Positions 1,311 to 8,769 of a stretch of DNA of 64,000 nucleotides are shown piece by piece. Under the pieces are notes generated by a model. The model ran no database searches. It had not been told where the DNA came from and worked only from the letters and a program-made list of their open reading frames with translations. The position numbers and the translations under genes were made by a program. How positions within the stretch are numbered: position 1 is the stretch's first letter; every line of letters begins with the position of its first letter. Source of the DNA: Escherichia coli (GTDB taxonomy: Bacteria > Pseudomonadota > Gammaproteobacteria > Enterobacterales > Enterobacteriaceae); assembly GCF_003334785.1 (NCBI RefSeq), contig NZ_QOWV01000001.1; one strand, given 5' to 3'.

Positions 1311-3908
1311 ATGGGTAAAGCTCTTGTCATCGTTGAGTCCCCGGCAAAAGCCAAAACGATCAACAAGTATCTGGGTAGTGACTACGTGGTGAAATCCAGC
1401 GTCGGTCACATCCGCGATTTGCCGACCAGTGGCTCAGCTGCCAAAAAGAGTGCCGACTCTACCTCCACCAAGACGGCTAAAAAGCCTAAAAAGGATGAAC
1501 GTGGCGCTCTCGTCAACCGTATGGGGGTTGACCCGTGGCACAATTGGGAGGCGCACTATGAAGTGTTGCCTGGTAAAGAGAAGGTCGTCTCTGAACTGAA
1601 ACAACTGGCTGAAAAAGCCGACCACATCTATCTCGCAACCGACCTTGACCGCGAAGGGGAAGCCATTGCATGGCACCTGCGGGAAGTGATTGGGGGTGAT
1701 GATGCGCGCTATAGCCGAGTGGTGTTTAACGAAATTACTAAAAACGCGATCCGCCAGGCATTTAACAAACCGGGTGAGCTGAATATTGATCGTGTTAATG
1801 CCCAGCAGGCGCGTCGCTTTATGGACCGCGTGGTGGGGTATATGGTTTCGCCGCTGCTATGGAAAAAGATCGCTCGTGGTCTGTCTGCCGGTCGTGTGCA
1901 GTCGGTGGCGGTTCGCCTGGTGGTCGAGCGTGAGCGTGAAATTAAAGCGTTCGTGCCGGAAGAGTTCTGGGAAGTCGATGCCAGCACGACCACGCCATCT
2001 GGTGAAGCGTTGGCGTTACAGGTGACTCATCAGAACGACAAACCGTTCCGTCCGGTCAACAAAGAACAAACTCAGGCTGCGGTAAGTCTGCTGGAAAAAG
2101 CGCGCTACAGCGTGCTGGAACGTGAAGACAAACCGACAACCAGTAAACCTGGCGCTCCTTTTATTACCTCTACGCTGCAACAAGCTGCCAGCACCCGTCT
2201 TGGATTTGGCGTGAAAAAAACCATGATGATGGCGCAGCGTTTGTATGAAGCAGGCTATATCACTTACATGCGTACCGACTCCACTAACCTGAGTCAGGAC
2301 GCGGTAAATATGGTTCGCGGTTATATCAGCGATAATTTTGGTAAGAAATATCTGCCGGAAAGTCCGAATCAGTACGCCAGCAAAGAAAACTCACAGGAAG
2401 CGCACGAAGCGATTCGTCCTTCTGACGTCAATGTGATGGCGGAATCGCTGAAGGATATGGAAGCAGATGCGCAGAAACTGTACCAGTTAATCTGGCGTCA
2501 GTTCGTTGCCTGCCAGATGACCCCAGCGAAATATGACTCCACGACGCTGACCGTTGGTGCGGGCGATTTCCGCCTGAAAGCACGCGGTCGTATTTTGCGT
2601 TTTGATGGCTGGACAAAAGTGATGCCTGCGTTGCGTAAAGGCGATGAAGATCGCATCTTACCAGCAGTTAATAAAGGCGATGCTCTGACGCTCGTTGAAC
2701 TTACACCAGCCCAGCACTTTACCAAGCCGCCAGCCCGTTTCAGTGAAGCATCGCTGGTTAAAGAGCTGGAAAAACGCGGTATCGGTCGTCCGTCTACCTA
2801 TGCGTCGATCATTTCGACCATTCAGGATCGTGGCTACGTGCGAGTAGAAAATCGTCGTTTCTATGCGGAAAAAATGGGCGAAATCGTCACCGATCGCCTT
2901 GAAGAAAATTTCCGCGAGTTAATGAACTACGACTTTACCGCGCAGATGGAAAACAGCCTCGACCAGGTGGCAAATCACGAAGCAGAGTGGAAAGCTGTAC
3001 TGGATCACTTCTTCTCGGATTTCACCCAGCAGTTAGATAAAGCTGAAAAAGATCCGGAAGAGGGTGGTATGCGCCCGAACCAGATGGTTCTGACCAGCAT
3101 TGACTGCCCGACTTGTGGTCGCAAAATGGGGATTCGCACAGCGAGCACCGGGGTATTCCTTGGCTGTTCTGGCTATGCGCTGCCGCCGAAAGAGCGTTGC
3201 AAAACCACCATTAACCTGGTGCCGGAAAACGAAGTGCTGAACGTGCTGGAAGGCGAAGATGCTGAAACCAACGCGCTGCGCGCAAAACGTCGTTGCCCGA
3301 AATGCGGCACGGCGATGGACAGCTATCTCATCGATCCGAAACGTAAGTTGCATGTCTGTGGTAATAACCCAACCTGCGACGGTTACGAGATCGAAGAGGG
3401 CGAATTCCGCATTAAAGGTTATGACGGCCCGATCGTTGAGTGTGAAAAATGTGGCTCTGAAATGCACCTGAAAATGGGGCGTTTCGGTAAATACATGGCC
3501 TGCACCAACGAAGAGTGTAAAAACACACGTAAGATTTTACGTAACGGCGAAGTGGCACCACCGAAAGAAGATCCGGTGCCATTACCTGAGCTGCCGTGCG
3601 AAAAATCAGATGCTTATTTCGTGCTGCGTGACGGTGCTGCCGGTGTGTTCCTGGCTGCCAACACTTTCCCGAAATCGCGTGAAACGCGTGCGCCACTGGT
3701 GGAAGAGCTTTATCGCTTCCGCGACCGTCTGCCGGAAAAACTGCGTTATCTGGCCGATGCGCCACAGCAGGATCCGGAAGGTAATAAGACCATGGTTCGC
3801 TTTAGCCGTAAAACCAAACAGCAATATGTCTCTTCGGAAAAAGACGGAAAGGCGACTGGCTGGTCAGCATTTTATGTTGATGGCAAATGGGTTGAAGGAA
3901 AAAAATAA
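1311..3908 (+). CDS. topA: DNA topoisomerase I
   Basis: 865-aa protein starting [22 protein letters not shown] (track ORF from 1269 is a 14-codon upstream extension); TOPRIM domain and C-terminal tetracysteine zinc ribbons (CPTCGRK..., CPKCGTAM..., CEKCGSEM...). Confidence 0.97.
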
Positions 3909-4093: not shown

Positions 4094-5092
<999 letters not shown>

Positions 5093-5422
5093 TTTCTTGC
5101 GTTATTTTCGGCACCTTTTATGTAGCGAAGGTGCCGGAATATATTCTCTTTTGTTACTTATTTCTATACCGTGCACAATATTTTTATCCCTCATATTTAT
5201 AGGGTAAATTACCTGTAAAGTAGTGTCTAATTACCCGCCTCGCAAACTCCAGTTTTCAAATATCTATTTCAGGTCAAAAGATTGAATTATTCACTGGAGA
5301 CGATTCGTAAATTCGCTGGATTTTTGACTAAAGTTTCTTTAGGATTTGTCTCATCGTATGATTAATTACACCAATCGTTCAACGTCTTGCTGATAAGTGA
5401 TGGCGATTATATGAGGTTAGCA

Positions 5423-5551
5423 ATGCCTTCTGGAAATCAGGAACCCCGCCGCGATCCTGAATTAAAACGTAAAGCCTGGCTGGCGGTTTTTCTTGGTTCT
5501 GCACTTTTCTGGGTGGTTGTCGCACTGCTGATTTGGAAAGTGTGGGGATAA
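5423..5551 (+). CDS. ymiA: Small membrane protein YmiA (alternative in-frame start at 5411)
   Basis: Not in track (<60 aa). ATG at 5423 has a GAGG Shine-Dalgarno 6 nt upstream; encodes MPSGNQEPRRDPELKRKAWLAVFLGSALFWVVVALLIWKVWG with one predicted TM helix; stop at 5549-5551. Confidence 0.6.
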   Translation: MPSGNQEPRRDPELKRKAWLAVFLGSALFWVVVALLIWKVWG

Positions 5552-5553
5552 CT

Positions 5554-5721
5554 ATGGTCGGTCAGGAGCAACTGGAGTCGTCACCATTATGCCAGCATAG
5601 TGACAATGAAACAGAAACGAAACGGGAATGTTCCGTCGTTATTCCAGACGACTGGCAACTAACATCGCAGCAGCAAGCCTTTATAGAACTGTTTGCTGAA
5701 GATGATCAGCCGAAACAATAA
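5554..5721 (+). CDS. yciX: Small protein YciX
   Basis: 55-codon ORF MVGQEQLESSPLCQHSDNETETKRECSVVIPDDWQLTSQQQAFIELFAEDDQPKQ; GGGGA SD just upstream; start lies 2 nt after the ymiA stop, consistent with translational coupling. Confidence 0.6.
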   Translation: MVGQEQLESSPLCQHSDNETETKRECSVVIPDDWQLTSQQQAFIELFAEDDQPKQ

Positions 5722-5834
5722 TTATCATCATTCTTATTACCCATTTTTAATGAATTAAAGGGCTTTTAATACACCGCAGCAATAACAGCTTGAGTTATCT
5801 CAACACAAAATAATAACCGTTAAGGGTGTAGCCT

Positions 5835-5930
5835 ATGATCAACACAAATATGAAATATTGGTCCTGGATGGGCGCGTTTTCTCTGTCGATGCTCTTCTGG
5901 GCCGAACTCCTCTGGATCATTACTCACTGA
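5835..5930 (+). CDS. 31-aa hydrophobic small protein (possibly the annotated small protein ymiC; unverified)
   Basis: ATG at 5835 preceded by AAGGGTG; encodes MINTNMKYWSWMGAFSLSMLFWAELLWIITH; stop TGA 5928-5930; followed immediately by a terminator hairpin. Track shows only an out-of-frame ORF at 5858..6040. Confidence 0.45.
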   Translation: MINTNMKYWSWMGAFSLSMLFWAELLWIITH

Positions 5931-5936
5931 TCCTTG

Positions 5937-5966
5937 ACCCCGCTGCGGCGGGGTTGTCATTTGCTT
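5937..5966 (+). terminator. Intrinsic terminator after the 31-aa ORF, upstream of acnA
   Basis: accccgc-tgcg-gcggggt hairpin followed by tgtcatttgcttt. Confidence 0.55.
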
Positions 5967-6093
5967 TGCCACAAGGTTTCTCCTCTTTTATCAATTTGGG
6001 TTGTTATCAAATCGTTACGCGATGTTTGTGTTATCTTTAATATTCACCCTGAAGAGAATCAGGGCTTCGCAACCCTGTCATTAAGGAGGAGCT

Positions 6094-8769
6094 ATGTCGT
6101 CAACCCTACGAGAAGCCAGTAAGGACACGTTGCAGGCCAAAGATAAAACTTACCACTACTACAGCCTGCCGCTTGCTGCTAAATCACTGGGCGATATCAC
6201 CCGTCTACCCAAGTCACTCAAAGTTTTGCTCGAAAACCTGCTGCGCTGGCAGGATGGTAACTCGGTTACCGAAGAGGATATCCACGCGCTGGCAGGATGG
6301 CTGAAAAATGCCCATGCTGACCGTGAAATTGCCTACCGCCCGGCAAGGGTGCTGATGCAGGACTTTACCGGCGTACCTGCCGTTGTTGATCTGGCGGCAA
6401 TGCGCGAAGCGGTTAAACGCCTCGGCGGCGATACTGCAAAGGTTAACCCGCTCTCACCGGTCGACCTGGTCATTGACCACTCGGTGACCGTCGATCGTTT
6501 TGGTGATGATGAGGCATTTGAAGAAAACGTACGCCTGGAAATGGAGCGCAACCACGAACGTTATGTGTTCCTGAAATGGGGAAAGCAAGCGTTCAGTCGG
6601 TTTAGCGTCGTGCCGCCAGGCACAGGCATTTGCCATCAGGTTAACCTCGAATATCTCGGCAAAGCAGTGTGGAGTGAATTGCAGGACGGTGAATGGATTG
6701 CTTATCCGGATACACTCGTTGGTACTGACTCGCACACCACCATGATCAACGGCCTTGGCGTGCTGGGGTGGGGCGTTGGTGGGATCGAAGCAGAAGCCGC
6801 AATGTTAGGCCAGCCGGTTTCCATGCTTATCCCGGATGTAGTGGGCTTCAAACTTACCGGAAAATTACGTGAAGGTATTACCGCCACAGACCTGGTTCTC
6901 ACTGTTACCCAAATGCTGCGCAAACATGGCGTGGTGGGGAAATTCGTCGAATTTTATGGTGATGGTCTGGATTCACTACCGTTGGCGGATCGCGCCACCA
7001 TTGCCAATATGTCGCCAGAATATGGTGCCACCTGTGGCTTCTTCCCAATCGATGCTGTAACCCTCGATTACATGCGTTTAAGCGGGCGCAGCGAAGATCA
7101 GGTCGAGTTGGTCGAAAAATATGCCAAAGCGCAGGGCATGTGGCGTAACCCGGGCGATGAACCAATTTTTACCAGTACGTTAGAACTGGATATGAATGAC
7201 GTTGAAGCGAGCCTGGCAGGGCCTAAACGCCCACAGGATCGCGTTGCACTGCCCGATGTACCAAAAGCATTTGCCGCCAGTAACGAACTGGAAGTGAATG
7301 CCACGCATAAAGATCGCCAGCCGGTCGATTATGTTATGAACGGACATCAGTATCAGTTACCTGATGGCGCTGTGGTCATTGCTGCGATAACCTCGTGCAC
7401 CAACACCTCTAACCCAAGTGTGCTGATGGCCGCAGGCTTGCTGGCGAAAAAAGCCGTAACTCTGGGCCTCAAGCGGCAACCATGGGTCAAAGCGTCGCTG
7501 GCACCGGGTTCGAAAGTCGTTTCTGATTATCTGGCAAAAGCGAAACTGACACCGTATCTCGACGAACTGGGGTTTAACCTTGTGGGATACGGTTGTACCA
7601 CCTGTATTGGTAACTCTGGGCCGCTGCCCGATCCTATCGAAACGGCAATCAAAAAAGGCGATTTAACCGTCGGTGCGGTGCTGTCCGGCAACCGTAACTT
7701 TGAAGGCCGTATCCATCCGCTGGTTAAAACTAACTGGCTGGCCTCGCCGCCGCTGGTGGTTGCCTATGCGCTGGCGGGAAATATGAATATCAACCTGGCT
7801 TCTGAGCCTATCGGCCATGATCGCAAAGGCGATCCGGTTTATCTGAAAGATATCTGGCCATCGGCACAAGAAATTGCCCGTGCGGTAGAACAAGTCTCCA
7901 CAGAAATGTTCCGCAAAGAGTACGCAGAAGTTTTTGAAGGCACAGCAGAGTGGAAGGGAATTAACGTCACACGATCCGATACCTACGGTTGGCAGGAGGA
8001 CTCAACCTATATTCGCTTATCGCCTTTCTTTGATGAAATGCAGGCAACACCAGCACCAGTGGAAGATATTCACGGTGCGCGGATCCTCGCAATGCTGGGG
8101 GATTCAGTCACCACTGACCATATCTCTCCGGCGGGCAGTATTAAGCCCGACAGCCCAGCGGGTCGATATCTACAAGGTCGGGGTGTTGAGCGAAAAGACT
8201 TTAACTCCTACGGTTCGCGGCGTGGTAACCATGAAGTGATGATGCGCGGCACCTTCGCCAATATTCGCATCCGTAATGAAATGGTGCCTGGCGTTGAAGG
8301 GGGGATGACGCGGCATTTACCTGACAGCGACGTAGTCTCTATTTATGATGCTGCGATGCGCTATAAGCAGGAGCAAACGCCGCTGGCGGTGATTGCCGGG
8401 AAAGAGTATGGATCAGGCTCCAGTCGTGACTGGGCGGCAAAAGGTCCGCGTCTGCTTGGTATTCGTGTGGTGATTGCCGAATCGTTTGAACGAATTCACC
8501 GTTCGAATTTAATTGGCATGGGCATCCTGCCGCTGGAATTTCCGCAAGGCGTAACGCGTAAAACGTTAGGGCTAACCGGGGAAGAGAAGATTGATATTGG
8601 CGATCTGCAAAACCTACAACCCGGCGCGACGGTTCCGGTGACGCTTACGCGCGCGGATGGTAGCCAGGAAGTCGTACCCTGCCGTTGTCGTATCGACACC
8701 GCGACGGAGTTGACCTACTACCAGAACGACGGCATTTTGCATTATGTCATTCGTAATATGTTGAAGTAA
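6094..8769 (+). CDS. acnA: Aconitate hydratase A
   Basis: 891-aa [33 protein letters not shown]...; strong SD (taaggagg) upstream; aconitase Fe-S cluster cysteines present. Confidence 0.97.

What the first reader, a model, noticed from the sequence alone, without database searches (positions are those of the whole stretch)
5835..5966. Small hydrophobic ORF (31 aa) with its own SD and terminator upstream of acnA, missed by the ORF track
ATG 5835 to TGA 5930 encodes MINTNMKYWSWMGAFSLSMLFWAELLWIITH, a single predicted TM helix, preceded by AAGGGTG and followed within 7 nt by a GC hairpin plus T tract. That is the architecture of a stand-alone small-protein gene. It may correspond to a small protein already catalogued in K-12 (I think ymiC) but I cannot confirm this.
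Basis: partly seen in the sequence, partly recalled or inferred. Interest (0 to 1): 0.45.

Follow-up and report, generated by a model that had tools for sequence, protein, structure and literature searches.

The report
Known small membrane protein gene ymiC
The 31-codon reading frame upstream of the aconitase gene is the already catalogued E. coli gene ymiC, a real, conserved, translated single-helix membrane protein of still unknown function, so the finding is correct but not new.

Summary
ATG 5835 to TGA 5930 encodes MINTNMKYWSWMGAFSLSMLFWAELLWIITH. AAGGGTG lies 6 nt upstream, and a 9-bp GC-rich hairpin starts 4 nt after the stop, followed by an imperfect T tract.

RefSeq annotates it at exactly these coordinates. 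It is present in 5422 of 5426 complete E. coli genomes and matches NCBIfam NF041484 and Pfam PF23694. Published work reports detection of the chromosomally tagged protein, start-site ribosome profiling signal, induction at low magnesium that depends on PhoQ, membrane localisation, and no deletion or overexpression phenotype.

The frame is open in 24 of 24 enterobacterial species compared, with no indels in the core. Pooled dN/dS is about 0.11, against 0.8 to 2.0 in the other two frames.

The ORF length and the ribosome-binding site are not above chance on their own. The gene is the last cistron of ymiA-yciX-ymiC rather than an independent transcription unit.

Side results:
- The Rfam "sRNA" family STnc180 is this mRNA.
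- YmiC and YmiA share a conserved transmembrane motif and are probably paralogues.
- The terminator is deleted in at least 677 E. coli genomes.

Verdict: already known, low interest.

The parts
5411..5551 (+). ymiA, first cistron of the reported ymiA-yciX-ymiC operon; 46-aa small membrane protein that shares the K..W...F..S.LFW motif with YmiC
   Evidence: RefSeq annotation mapped through L001. The operon is reported in PMC11429745. Similarity to YmiC.
5554..5721 (+). yciX, second cistron (55 aa)
   Evidence: RefSeq annotation. Synteny is conserved in the related loci.
5762..5964 (+). Match to Rfam RF02079 'STnc180', filed as an enterobacterial sRNA; it covers the ymiC 5' UTR, the whole coding sequence and the terminator
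   Evidence: cmscan gives 198 bits against a gathering score of 50, E = 7e-43, over the full model. Sittka 2008 found 500-2000 nt northern signals for STnc180 and judged it a processed mRNA species.
5770..5785 (+). Conserved 5' UTR block TACACCGCAGCAATAA. ACACC (5771-5775) can pair with the SD GGUGU (5825-5829). AGC-AAU-AAC-AGC reads as four A-R-N triplets; a role as an Hfq site is my inference only
   Evidence: The block is nearly invariant across about 20 species. The ACACC:GGUGU helix is 84% paired but shows no covariation. It is present in the MFE fold but not in the centroid.
5790..5803 (+). Conserved 5' UTR hairpin TTGAG-TTAT-CTCAA
   Evidence: All 5 pairs show compensatory changes on both sides, and 92% of cells are paired. 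For the whole two-helix structure tested, 0 of 500 shuffles reached the observed covariation score. The hairpin is in both the MFE and centroid folds.
5822..5828 (+). Shine-Dalgarno-like AAGGGTG, 6 nt before the ATG; the GGTGT core is conserved across genera
5835..5930 (+). ymiC coding sequence, 31 aa, single transmembrane helix
   Evidence: dN/dS. The frame is open in 24 of 24 species. AlphaFold2 predicts a helix over residues 3-30 with pLDDT 88. Literature.
5935..5968 (+). Intrinsic-terminator-like hairpin (5935-5956) plus interrupted T tract (5957-5968)
   Evidence: A hairpin plus T tract follows the stop in 19 of 26 related loci, with different stem sequences. The 3' arm is deleted in at least 677 E. 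coli genomes.
6030..6037 (+). -10 element (GTTATCTT) of acnA promoter P2, transcription start about 6044; acnA has its own promoter downstream of the ymiC terminator
   Evidence: Mendoza-Vargas 2009, PMC2760140, main text and supplement.
6094..8769 (+). acnA (aconitate hydratase A), the downstream gene

Best explanation
The ORF is ymiC, a bona fide protein-coding gene for a 31-residue, single-pass inner-membrane protein. It is translated from its own modest Shine-Dalgarno site. It is the third cistron of the ymiA-yciX-ymiC transcript, which is induced at low Mg2+ through PhoQ/PhoP. In K-12 that transcript ends at the hairpin directly after the ymiC stop codon, and acnA is transcribed mainly from its own P2 promoter further downstream.

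The protein is one alpha-helix. The N-terminal side, with the invariant K7, is probably cytoplasmic. Invariant aromatic and small residues (Y8, W9, W11, F15, S18, W22) and a buried E/Q24 are maintained by purifying selection.

Inferred, not shown: YmiC acts like other PhoP-induced small membrane proteins (MgrB, MgtS, PmrR) by docking its helix onto a larger membrane protein or onto its likely paralogue YmiA. This would tune that partner under Mg2+ or envelope stress. The partner and the effect are unknown.
For: Identity:
- The coordinates match the RefSeq ymiC annotation exactly.
- NCBIfam NF041484 scores 66.3 bits against a cutoff of 42.
- Pfam PF23694 matches at E = 4.8e-25, and all 21 aligned homologues match it.
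- The sequence is present in 5422 of 5426 complete E. coli genomes and labelled ymiC in every listed row.

Coding constraint, computed here:
- The cysB-ymiA-yciX-ymiC-acnA order is conserved in Escherichia, Citrobacter, Salmonella, Enterobacter, Lelliottia, Leclercia, Kosakonia, Yokenella, Dryocola, Franconibacter and Scandinavium.
- Of 11 loci found through YmiA, independently of ymiC, 10 carry the ORF.
- The core from K7 to the stop is 25 codons in every species except Salmonella, where it is 24; there are no internal indels.
- Pooled dN/dS is 0.11, against 0.84 and 2.0 in the other forward frames. It is 0.18 after removing the codons used to find the loci.
- Only this frame is open in 24 of 24 species; the other five frames are open in 2 to 11.
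- Among four aligned E. coli alleles (K-12, LR-28, O157:H7 TW14359, isolate 31B22CPO057), every substitution in the ORF is synonymous and the protein accession is the same.

Structure:
- AlphaFold2 gives a single helix over residues 3-30, pLDDT 88.
- The hydrophobic stretch covers residues 11-30.

Published experiments:
- The identical peptide is listed among the small proteins identified by chromosomal SPA tagging and immunoblot, and it was positive in tetracycline ribosome profiling (PMC6001520).
- It was selected as low-Mg2+-induced by Ribo-RET. Reporter activity depends on PhoQ and comes from the region upstream of ymiA, not from the region immediately upstream of ymiC. GFP-YmiC sits at the cell periphery (PMC11429745).
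- The RNA segment is listed as TEX-sensitive (PMC7213987).

Terminator: a hairpin plus T tract recurs after the stop in 19 of 26 loci, with unrelated stem sequences.

Relation to YmiA:
- hhalign gives probability 84%, E = 7.6e-6, score 26.3. In 200 column shuffles the mean was 10.3 and the maximum 20.7.
- The conserved YmiC residues K7, W11, F15, S18, L20, F21 and W22 align with YmiA K19, W23, F27, S30, L32, F33 and W34, which are invariant or, for L32, nearly invariant in the YmiA alignment.
Against: - No function is known. Deletion and overexpression gave no growth or morphology phenotype at low Mg2+.
- The partner-binding mechanism is an analogy, not a result.
- The helical periodicity of conservation is not significant (p about 0.19), so a single interaction face is not demonstrated.
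- The gene is dispensable in some lineages. It is absent from the Citrobacter freundii-complex locus. E. whittamii has lost the SD block. One E. coli strain carries IS1 inside it.
- The terminator was not seen as a 3' end in the Term-seq tables I could search.
- Its 3' arm is deleted in at least 677 E. coli genomes, so ending the operon at this point is not obligatory.
- The operon structure and the PhoQP dependence come from a preprint. I found no canonical PhoP box within 2 mismatches upstream of ymiA.
Confidence: 0.95

Rival explanations
1. The locus is primarily a non-coding or dual-function Hfq-associated RNA, STnc180 (also described as a 'yciX 3' UTR-derived sRNA'). On this reading the ORF is secondary, and the RNA acts by base-pairing with other mRNAs such as nadA.
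For: - Rfam RF02079 'STnc180', typed as an sRNA gene, matches 5762-5964 at 198 bits.
- STnc180 cDNAs were recovered in the Salmonella Hfq co-immunoprecipitation sequencing study.
- E. coli Hfq-CLASH lists this segment as a putative 3' UTR-derived sRNA. It reports 7 chimeras joining ymiC 5850-5878 to the nadA coding sequence, predicted at -24.3 kcal/mol.
- The 5' UTR carries a strongly conserved A-R-N-rich block and a hairpin with covariation.
Against: - Sittka 2008 saw only 500-2000 nt species on northern blots and called STnc180 a processed mRNA.
- Purifying selection is specific to one reading frame, and synonymous sites are near saturation (pS about 0.70). This argues against strong RNA-level constraint in the ORF.
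- The protein has been detected and localised.
- Seven chimeras is a low count, and the segment is not in the RIL-seq chimera set.
Confidence: 0.08
2. ymiC is a regulatory upstream ORF (leader peptide) whose translation controls read-through of the hairpin into acnA. The peptide itself would be irrelevant.
For: - Adams et al. 2021 listed ymiC-acnA among candidate uORF-regulated pairs.
- The stop codon is only 4-6 nt from the hairpin, so a terminating ribosome would cover the 5' arm (sequence).
- The K-12 T tract is weak, which would allow leakage.
- From memory and not verified here: Cunningham et al. 1997 placed a distal acnA promoter, P1, about 407 nt upstream. That would put ymiC in its leader.
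Against: - The 3' end that led Adams et al. to list the pair is at window 6098, just inside acnA. It is not at the ymiC hairpin, and none is listed at 5663-6062.
- No alternative antiterminator pairing with the terminator 5' arm is predicted.
- The whole helix is under purifying selection, not only a few codons.
- The distance from stop to hairpin varies from 1 to 55 nt in the detected hairpins, and in several Citrobacter loci extra, partly repeat-like sequence lies between them.
- acnA has its own P2 promoter downstream of the hairpin.
- The hairpin is deleted in at least 677 E. coli genomes while the protein sequence is kept.
- The protein accumulates and localises to the membrane.
Confidence: 0.07
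3. The ORF is a chance reading frame in an AT-rich intergenic region, and the hairpin simply terminates yciX transcription.
For: An ATG ORF of at least 31 codons occurs in 46% of shuffles of this intergenic region, and the SD is only -5.9 kcal/mol.
Against: - The frame is open in 24 of 24 species, against 2 to 11 for the other five frames.
- dN/dS is about 0.11 in this frame only.
- Curated NCBIfam and Pfam families exist for it.
- The protein has been detected.
Confidence: 0.01

Closest known systems
YmiC (NCBIfam NF041484 'small membrane protein YmiC'; Pfam PF23694 'YmiC-like'; RefSeq WP_001310756.1)
   Same: Identical sequence, coordinates, length, gene neighbourhood (yciX / acnA) and membrane-helix character. 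It is this gene.
   Different: Nothing.
YmiA (Pfam PF22868 'YmiA-like'), first gene of the same operon
   Same: Small single-pass membrane protein, induced at low Mg2+ like YmiC and reported in the same operon. It shares the motif K-x3-W-x3-F-x2-S-x-L-F-W in register (hhalign E = 7.6e-6, above all 200 shuffles).
   Different: YmiA is 46 aa with a charged N-terminal extension (PRRDPELKRK) and a different C-terminal half (VVVALLIWKVWG, against AELLWIITH in YmiC). Its overexpression delays growth, whereas YmiC overexpression does not. They are filed as separate Pfam families.
PhoP/PhoQ-induced small membrane regulators MgrB, MgtS and PmrR
   Same: Proteins of 50 aa or fewer, membrane-associated (shown for E. 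coli MgrB and MgtS and for Salmonella PmrR), and induced at low Mg2+. They are the likely model for how YmiC works.
   Different: No sequence relationship was tested or claimed. Those proteins have known targets (the preprint describes MgrB as an inhibitor of PhoQ and PmrR as an inhibitor of LpxT; MgtS acting on MgtA is from my own knowledge). YmiC has no known partner or phenotype.
Rfam RF02079 STnc180 (enterobacterial 'sRNA')
   Same: The same piece of DNA: the model aligns end to end with the ymiC 5' UTR, coding sequence and terminator.
   Different: The family is typed as a non-coding sRNA gene. The evidence here shows a protein-coding mRNA segment. Only the short 5' UTR hairpin has covariation support among the elements I tested.

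Membership tests
YmiC (NCBIfam NF041484 / Pfam PF23694) | Score above the curated family threshold | tested here: met
   NF041484 scores 66.3 bits against a cutoff of 42, E = 1.2e-18. PF23694 matches at E = 4.8e-25 over residues 1-31.
YmiC (NCBIfam NF041484 / Pfam PF23694) | Peptide of about 30-33 residues forming one hydrophobic helix | tested here: met
   The peptide is 31 aa. AlphaFold2 predicts a helix over residues 3-30 with pLDDT 88. The hydropathy maximum covers residues 11-30.
YmiC (NCBIfam NF041484 / Pfam PF23694) | Location between yciX and acnA, downstream of cysB and ymiA | tested here: met
   The same order holds in the related loci that extend far enough.
YmiC (NCBIfam NF041484 / Pfam PF23694) | The reading frame is maintained by selection on the protein | tested here: met
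   dN/dS is 0.11, or 0.18 without the codons used to find the loci, against 0.7-2.5 in the other frames. The frame is open in 24 of 24 species.
YmiC (NCBIfam NF041484 / Pfam PF23694) | The protein is actually made and sits in the membrane | not testable with these tools
   Literature only: SPA tagging and immunoblot (PMC6001520); Ribo-RET and GFP-YmiC at the cell periphery (PMC11429745).
Rfam RF02079 STnc180 sRNA | Covariance-model score above the gathering threshold | tested here: met
   198 bits against 50, over the full-length model.
Rfam RF02079 STnc180 sRNA | A discrete, non-coding small RNA | tested here: not met
   The match contains a conserved, translated ORF. The original study saw only 500-2000 nt species and called it a processed mRNA.
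Leader-peptide / uORF transcription attenuator | Alternative antiterminator structure competing with the terminator and controlled by ribosome position | tested here: not met
   No pairing to the terminator 5' arm appears in folds of 5762-5970 or 5890-5947. This rests on thermodynamic prediction for a single sequence.
Leader-peptide / uORF transcription attenuator | Fixed spatial coupling between the ORF stop and the terminator, and the terminator indispensable | tested here: not met
   The gap from stop to hairpin ranges from 1 to 55 nt across species. The 3' arm is deleted in at least 677 E. coli genomes.
Leader-peptide / uORF transcription attenuator | Expression of the downstream gene depends on translation of the uORF | not testable with these tools
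   This needs acnA reporter fusions with ymiC start and stop mutants.
PhoP-induced small membrane-protein regulators (functional class, e.g. MgrB, MgtS, PmrR) | PhoQ/PhoP-dependent induction at low Mg2+ | tested here: inconclusive
   Reported in the preprint. No PhoP box within 2 mismatches lies upstream of ymiA. There is only a conserved degenerate repeat, AGTTTC-N5-GATTTG, at 5332-5348.
PhoP-induced small membrane-protein regulators (functional class, e.g. MgrB, MgtS, PmrR) | Binds and modulates a defined larger membrane protein | not tested
   No partner is known, and deletion and overexpression give no phenotype.

The most novel reading that the evidence does not exclude
The processed, Hfq-associated ymiC transcript (Rfam STnc180) could be a dual-function RNA. 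It would encode YmiC and also base-pair with other mRNAs, with nadA as the candidate from the CLASH chimeras. Its conserved 5' UTR (ACACC pairing with the SD, an A-R-N-rich block and a covarying hairpin) would gate translation. In parallel, YmiC and its probable paralogue YmiA could form a two-component small-protein module acting on one membrane target.
Probability: 0.1. Interest if true: 0.45.

Novelty: already known. Interest (0 to 1): 0.1.

Why it matters
As a finding it only shows that a sequence-only reader can recover a genuine 31-codon gene that length-filtered ORF lists drop. That gene was named, annotated and detected as a protein in 2018.

The remaining value lies in curation and leads:
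- An Rfam "sRNA" family and a "3' UTR-derived sRNA" candidate are in fact this coding mRNA.
- YmiC and YmiA look like paralogues, which suggests testing them together. Single deletions gave no phenotype, and redundancy could explain that.
- Natural E. coli alleles with and without the ymiC terminator offer a ready-made test of whether low-Mg2+ induction of the operon spills into acnA.

Tried and rejected
I used the representative-library phmmer search instead, which gave 10 hits.
- The genome-collection scan used a single peptide pattern and returned only 16 loci, biased towards the KYWSW motif. I corrected for this with 11 loci found through YmiA, and by recomputing dN/dS without the motif codons.
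- A search for a PhoP-box consensus with up to 2 mismatches found nothing upstream of ymiA, and the window-wide count was at chance level.
- I looked for a Term-seq 3' end at the ymiC terminator in the Adams 2021 supplements. None is listed there. Their ymiC-acnA entry refers to a 3' end at window 6098.
- I could not retrieve Cunningham 1997 to verify acnA promoter P1. One search returned nothing and another failed for lack of capacity. Only P2 at -50 was confirmed.
- The supplements of the 2016 RIL-seq paper are not held.
- Conserved residues W11, F15, S18, W22 and L25 looked as if they line one helical face, but the permutation test is not significant (p about 0.19). I dropped this as evidence.
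- A sigma-70-like promoter immediately upstream of ymiC (TTATCA-N18-TTTAAT, 5722-5751, found by eye) is not conserved across genera. It is also contradicted by the reporter result and the TEX data.
- The profile search against solved structures gave no match.
- The reverse-strand ORFs (5820-5972 and 5795-5920) are not preserved in other species.

Full report
**1. What is in the sequence**

The window is E. coli K-12-like chromosome. It carries cysB (4118-5092), ymiA (5411-5551), yciX (5554-5721), the ORF in question (5835-5930) and acnA (6094-8769), all on the + strand.

The ORF runs from ATG 5835 to TGA 5928-5930 and encodes exactly the quoted 31-residue peptide. AAGGGTG lies at 5822-5828, 6 nt before the ATG. 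The hairpin TGACCCCGC-TGCG-GCGGGGTTG occupies 5935-5956 and starts 4 nt after the stop. It is followed by TCATTTGCTTTG, and it folds at -18 kcal/mol, z = -2.3.

- An ATG ORF of at least 31 codons arises in 46% of shuffles of the 372-nt intergenic region.
- The SD duplex is only -5.9 kcal/mol.
- The T tract is interrupted.

**2. Identity**

A megablast of 5300-6300 against 5,426 complete E. coli genomes hits 5,422 of them. In every listed row with the region intact, the annotation under the match includes "ymiC: small membrane protein YmiC". The exceptions among listed rows are one strain with an IS1 insertion and one partial hit.

In strain HE_50 the ymiC CDS (WP_001310756.1) maps exactly to window 5835-5930. 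The peptide scores 66.3 bits against NCBIfam equivalog NF041484, whose cutoff is 42. It scores E = 4.8e-25 against Pfam PF23694 "YmiC-like".

**3. Published evidence**

- VanOrsdel et al. 2018 (PMC6001520) list ymiC between yciX and acnA, at K-12 coordinates 1335572-1335667, with the identical peptide. It is among the small proteins they identified by chromosomal SPA tagging and immunoblot. They note it was also an unidentified positive in tetracycline-inhibited ribosome profiling. These K-12 coordinates fix the offset: window coordinate + 1,329,737.
- A preprint from the Yadavalli laboratory (the laboratory named by the paper's code repository; PMC11429745) used Ribo-RET and found YmiC among 17 small proteins induced at low Mg2+.
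- In that study, reporter activity was PhoQ-dependent and came from the region upstream of ymiA. The region immediately upstream of ymiC had negligible activity, so the authors assign an operon ymiA-yciX-ymiC.
- In the same study, GFP-YmiC, tagged at the N-terminus that was predicted to be cytoplasmic, localised to the cell periphery. Deletion and overexpression had no effect on growth.
- Adams et al. 2021 (PMC7815308) mention ymiC-acnA as a possible uORF pair. The 3' end behind that entry is at K-12 1335835, which is window 6098. It lies just inside acnA, after a different hairpin at 6060-6077. No 3' end is listed between K-12 1335400 and 1335799.

**4.

I collected 16 loci with a YmiC peptide pattern. 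Because that selection is biased towards the motif, I also collected 11 loci through the neighbouring protein YmiA.

- The gene order cysB-ymiA-yciX-ymiC-acnA is conserved.
- Of the 11 YmiA-ascertained loci, 10 carry a YmiC-like ORF. These include Salmonella, E. fergusonii, Enterobacter hormaechei, Citrobacter koseri and C. rodentium, Leclercia, Scandinavium and a locus whose YmiA is labelled Franconibacter. The Citrobacter freundii-complex locus has none.
- The core from K7 to the stop is 25 codons everywhere except Salmonella, where it is 24. There are no internal indels.
- Pooled Nei-Gojobori dN/dS is 0.11 in the ymiC frame, against 0.84 and 2.0 in the other two forward frames for the unbiased set. 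It is 0.18 after removing the KYWSWxG codons.
- Only the ymiC frame is free of stops in all 24 species. The five other frames are open in 2 to 11 species.
- Among four aligned E. coli alleles, all ORF differences are synonymous and the protein accession is identical.

The codon pattern is clearly that of a protein under purifying selection. In the 24-species set the invariant residues are K7, Y8, W9, W11, F15, S18 and W22, and position 24 is E or Q in all but one sequence. The second Met (M6) is not conserved, so the annotated ATG, or its equivalent in other species, is the start. AlphaFold2 with the 21-sequence alignment gives one helix over residues 3-30, mean pLDDT 88.

**5. Transcript anatomy**

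Rfam RF02079 "STnc180", filed as an enterobacterial sRNA gene, matches 5762-5964 at 198 bits over the full model. That span is the ymiC 5' UTR, coding sequence and terminator.

The discovery paper (Sittka 2008, PMC2515195) reported that STnc180 gave only 500-2000 nt northern signals and was probably a processed mRNA. E. coli Hfq-CLASH (Iosub 2020, PMC7213987) lists the same segment as a putative "yciX 3' UTR" sRNA. It is recorded there as TEX-sensitive, meaning processed rather than a primary transcript. Seven chimeras join ymiC 5850-5878 to nadA. The coding gene has therefore been filed twice as a non-coding RNA.

The 5' UTR contains a nearly invariant block, TACACCGCAGCAATAA (5770-5785), and a hairpin at 5790-5803. 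All five pairs of that hairpin show compensatory changes, and 92% of cells are paired. The Rfam-proposed pairing of ACACC with the SD GGUGU is compatible with the alignment (84% paired) but shows no covariation. It appears in the MFE fold but not in the centroid.

A hairpin plus T tract follows the stop in 19 of 26 loci, with unrelated stem sequences. That argues for a selected terminator. Within E. coli, however, it is decaying:
- The K-12 U tract (TTGTCATTT) is degenerate relative to TTTTCTTTT in sister Escherichia species.
- A 14-nt deletion removes the 3' arm in at least 677 genomes, while at least 3,326 keep the K-12-type hairpin.

acnA promoter P2 (-10 element GTTATCTT at 6030-6037, transcription start at -50) lies downstream of the hairpin.

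**6. Mechanism**

Shown by published experiments: the protein is translated, it is membrane-localised, and it is induced at low Mg2+ in a PhoQ-dependent way as part of the ymiA operon. Shown here by comparison of species: it is a conserved single helix under purifying selection.

Inferred: it works as a helix that docks onto a larger membrane protein, as MgrB, MgtS and PmrR do.

One new lead supports a protein-interaction role. YmiC and YmiA align in register over the conserved motif K-x3-W-x3-F-x2-S-x-L-F-W.
- BLASTP gives E = 3e-4 for the pair.
- hhalign gives probability 84%, E = 7.6e-6, score 26.3. In 200 column shuffles the mean was 10.3, the standard deviation 2.6 and the maximum 20.7. 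The reversed profile scored 9.1.
- They are probably paralogues within one operon. They may be redundant or may act together, which could explain the lack of single-mutant phenotypes.

I could not show that the conserved residues form a single helical face (p about 0.19).

**7. Rivals**

- A pure sRNA reading is excluded by the coding evidence. A dual-function RNA remains possible but is thinly supported: seven chimeras and Hfq association.
- A leader-peptide or attenuator role for acnA is unlikely. No antiterminator is predicted. Stop-to-hairpin spacing varies from 1 to 55 nt. The hairpin is dispensable in many strains. Selection acts on the whole peptide. acnA has its own promoter.
- The existence of a distal acnA promoter P1 at about -407, which would place ymiC in an acnA leader, rests only on my memory of Cunningham et al. 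1997. I could not check it.
- Chance is excluded.

**8. Verdict**

Novelty: already known. Interest: low.

The side observations are modest curation points and leads, not discoveries:
- The Rfam family STnc180 is the ymiC mRNA.
- YmiA and YmiC are probably paralogues.
- The 5' UTR elements are conserved.
- The terminator is polymorphic within E. coli.

Noticed in passing
window 5762-5964: Rfam family RF02079 'STnc180', typed as an sRNA gene, is co-extensive with the ymiC 5' UTR, coding sequence and terminator. The same segment is listed as a putative 'yciX 3' UTR-derived sRNA' in E. coli Hfq-CLASH, with 7 chimeras to nadA. Both look like non-coding labels placed on a coding mRNA.
   Followed up: yes
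window 5411-5551 (ymiA) and 5835-5930 (ymiC): YmiA and YmiC share an in-register conserved transmembrane motif, K-x3-W-x3-F-x2-S-x-LFW. The hhalign score of 26.3 exceeds all 200 column-shuffled controls (maximum 20.7). They are probably paralogues in one operon. I did not see this stated in the papers I read.
   Followed up: yes
window 5946-5959; L029 531/532: A 14-nt deletion removes the 3' arm of the ymiC terminator hairpin in at least 677 of 5,426 complete E. coli genomes, including strains labelled ExPEC or UPEC. At least 3,326 genomes keep the K-12-type hairpin. The YmiC protein is unchanged in the deletion-allele strain examined, LR-28.
   Followed up: yes
window 5954-5968: The K-12 T tract after the hairpin (TTGTCATTTGC) is degenerate compared with TTTTCTTTT in Escherichia sp. 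E1V33 and E. whittamii. A third E. coli allele has TTTTCATTT.
   Followed up: partly
window 5770-5803: The ymiC 5' UTR has conserved elements: an invariant-like block TACACC.CAGCAATAA, and a hairpin TTGAG-N4-CTCAA with compensatory changes at all five pairs. ACACC can pair with the SD GGUGU, as in the Rfam structure, but without covariation.
   Followed up: partly
window 5328-5366: The region upstream of ymiA is very strongly conserved across genera. It contains the palindrome CTAAAG-TTT-CTTTAG and the direct repeat AGTTTC-N5-GATTTG, 12 nt before ATTAAT. This could be a degenerate PhoP box. No canonical box within 2 mismatches was found.
   Followed up: partly
L025 2815-3122 (Citrobacter freundii complex): ymiA, yciX and acnA are present, but there is no YmiC-like ORF in the 308-nt spacer. 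This looks like lineage-specific loss of the gene.
   Followed up: yes
L006 about 2985-3000 (Escherichia whittamii): A deletion removes the SD block upstream of an otherwise intact ymiC ORF, so translation may be impaired in this species.
   Followed up: no
NZ_CP049118.1 45476-47252 (hits H1 / H42): In E. coli strain EC931 an IS1A element interrupts the locus. The ymiC match stops at query position 97, which is window 5911, inside the ORF.
   Followed up: no
L002 (NZ_JAHZMP010000227.1): A 454-bp contig at 1.3x coverage, filed under Terrisporobacter mayombei DSM 6539 (a Firmicute), encodes YciX, YmiC and the C-terminal 18 residues of YmiA, each 100% identical to the E. coli proteins. This is almost certainly contamination of that assembly.
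   Followed up: partly
protein P0106: A 34-aa protein from one NCBI contig is a chimera of YmiC residues 1-11 and YmiA residues 24-46, and it is hit by both Pfam families. This is compatible with a tandem-duplication junction or with an assembly artefact.
   Followed up: no
window 6060-6098: The hairpin CAGGGCTTCGCAACCCTG lies just before the acnA SD. The Term-seq 3' end reported by Adams 2021 at K-12 1335835 maps to window 6098, 4 nt into acnA, and is scored there as not Rho-dependent. This, not the ymiC terminator, is the 3' end behind their 'ymiC-acnA uORF' entry.
   Followed up: partly
L004 3097-3173 (Escherichia sp. MOD1-EC7003): This ymiC has a GTG start and E24K/L25R substitutions. The sequence after the stop diverges from other Escherichia and runs to the contig end, so there may be a rearrangement or insertion next to the gene.
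   Followed up: no
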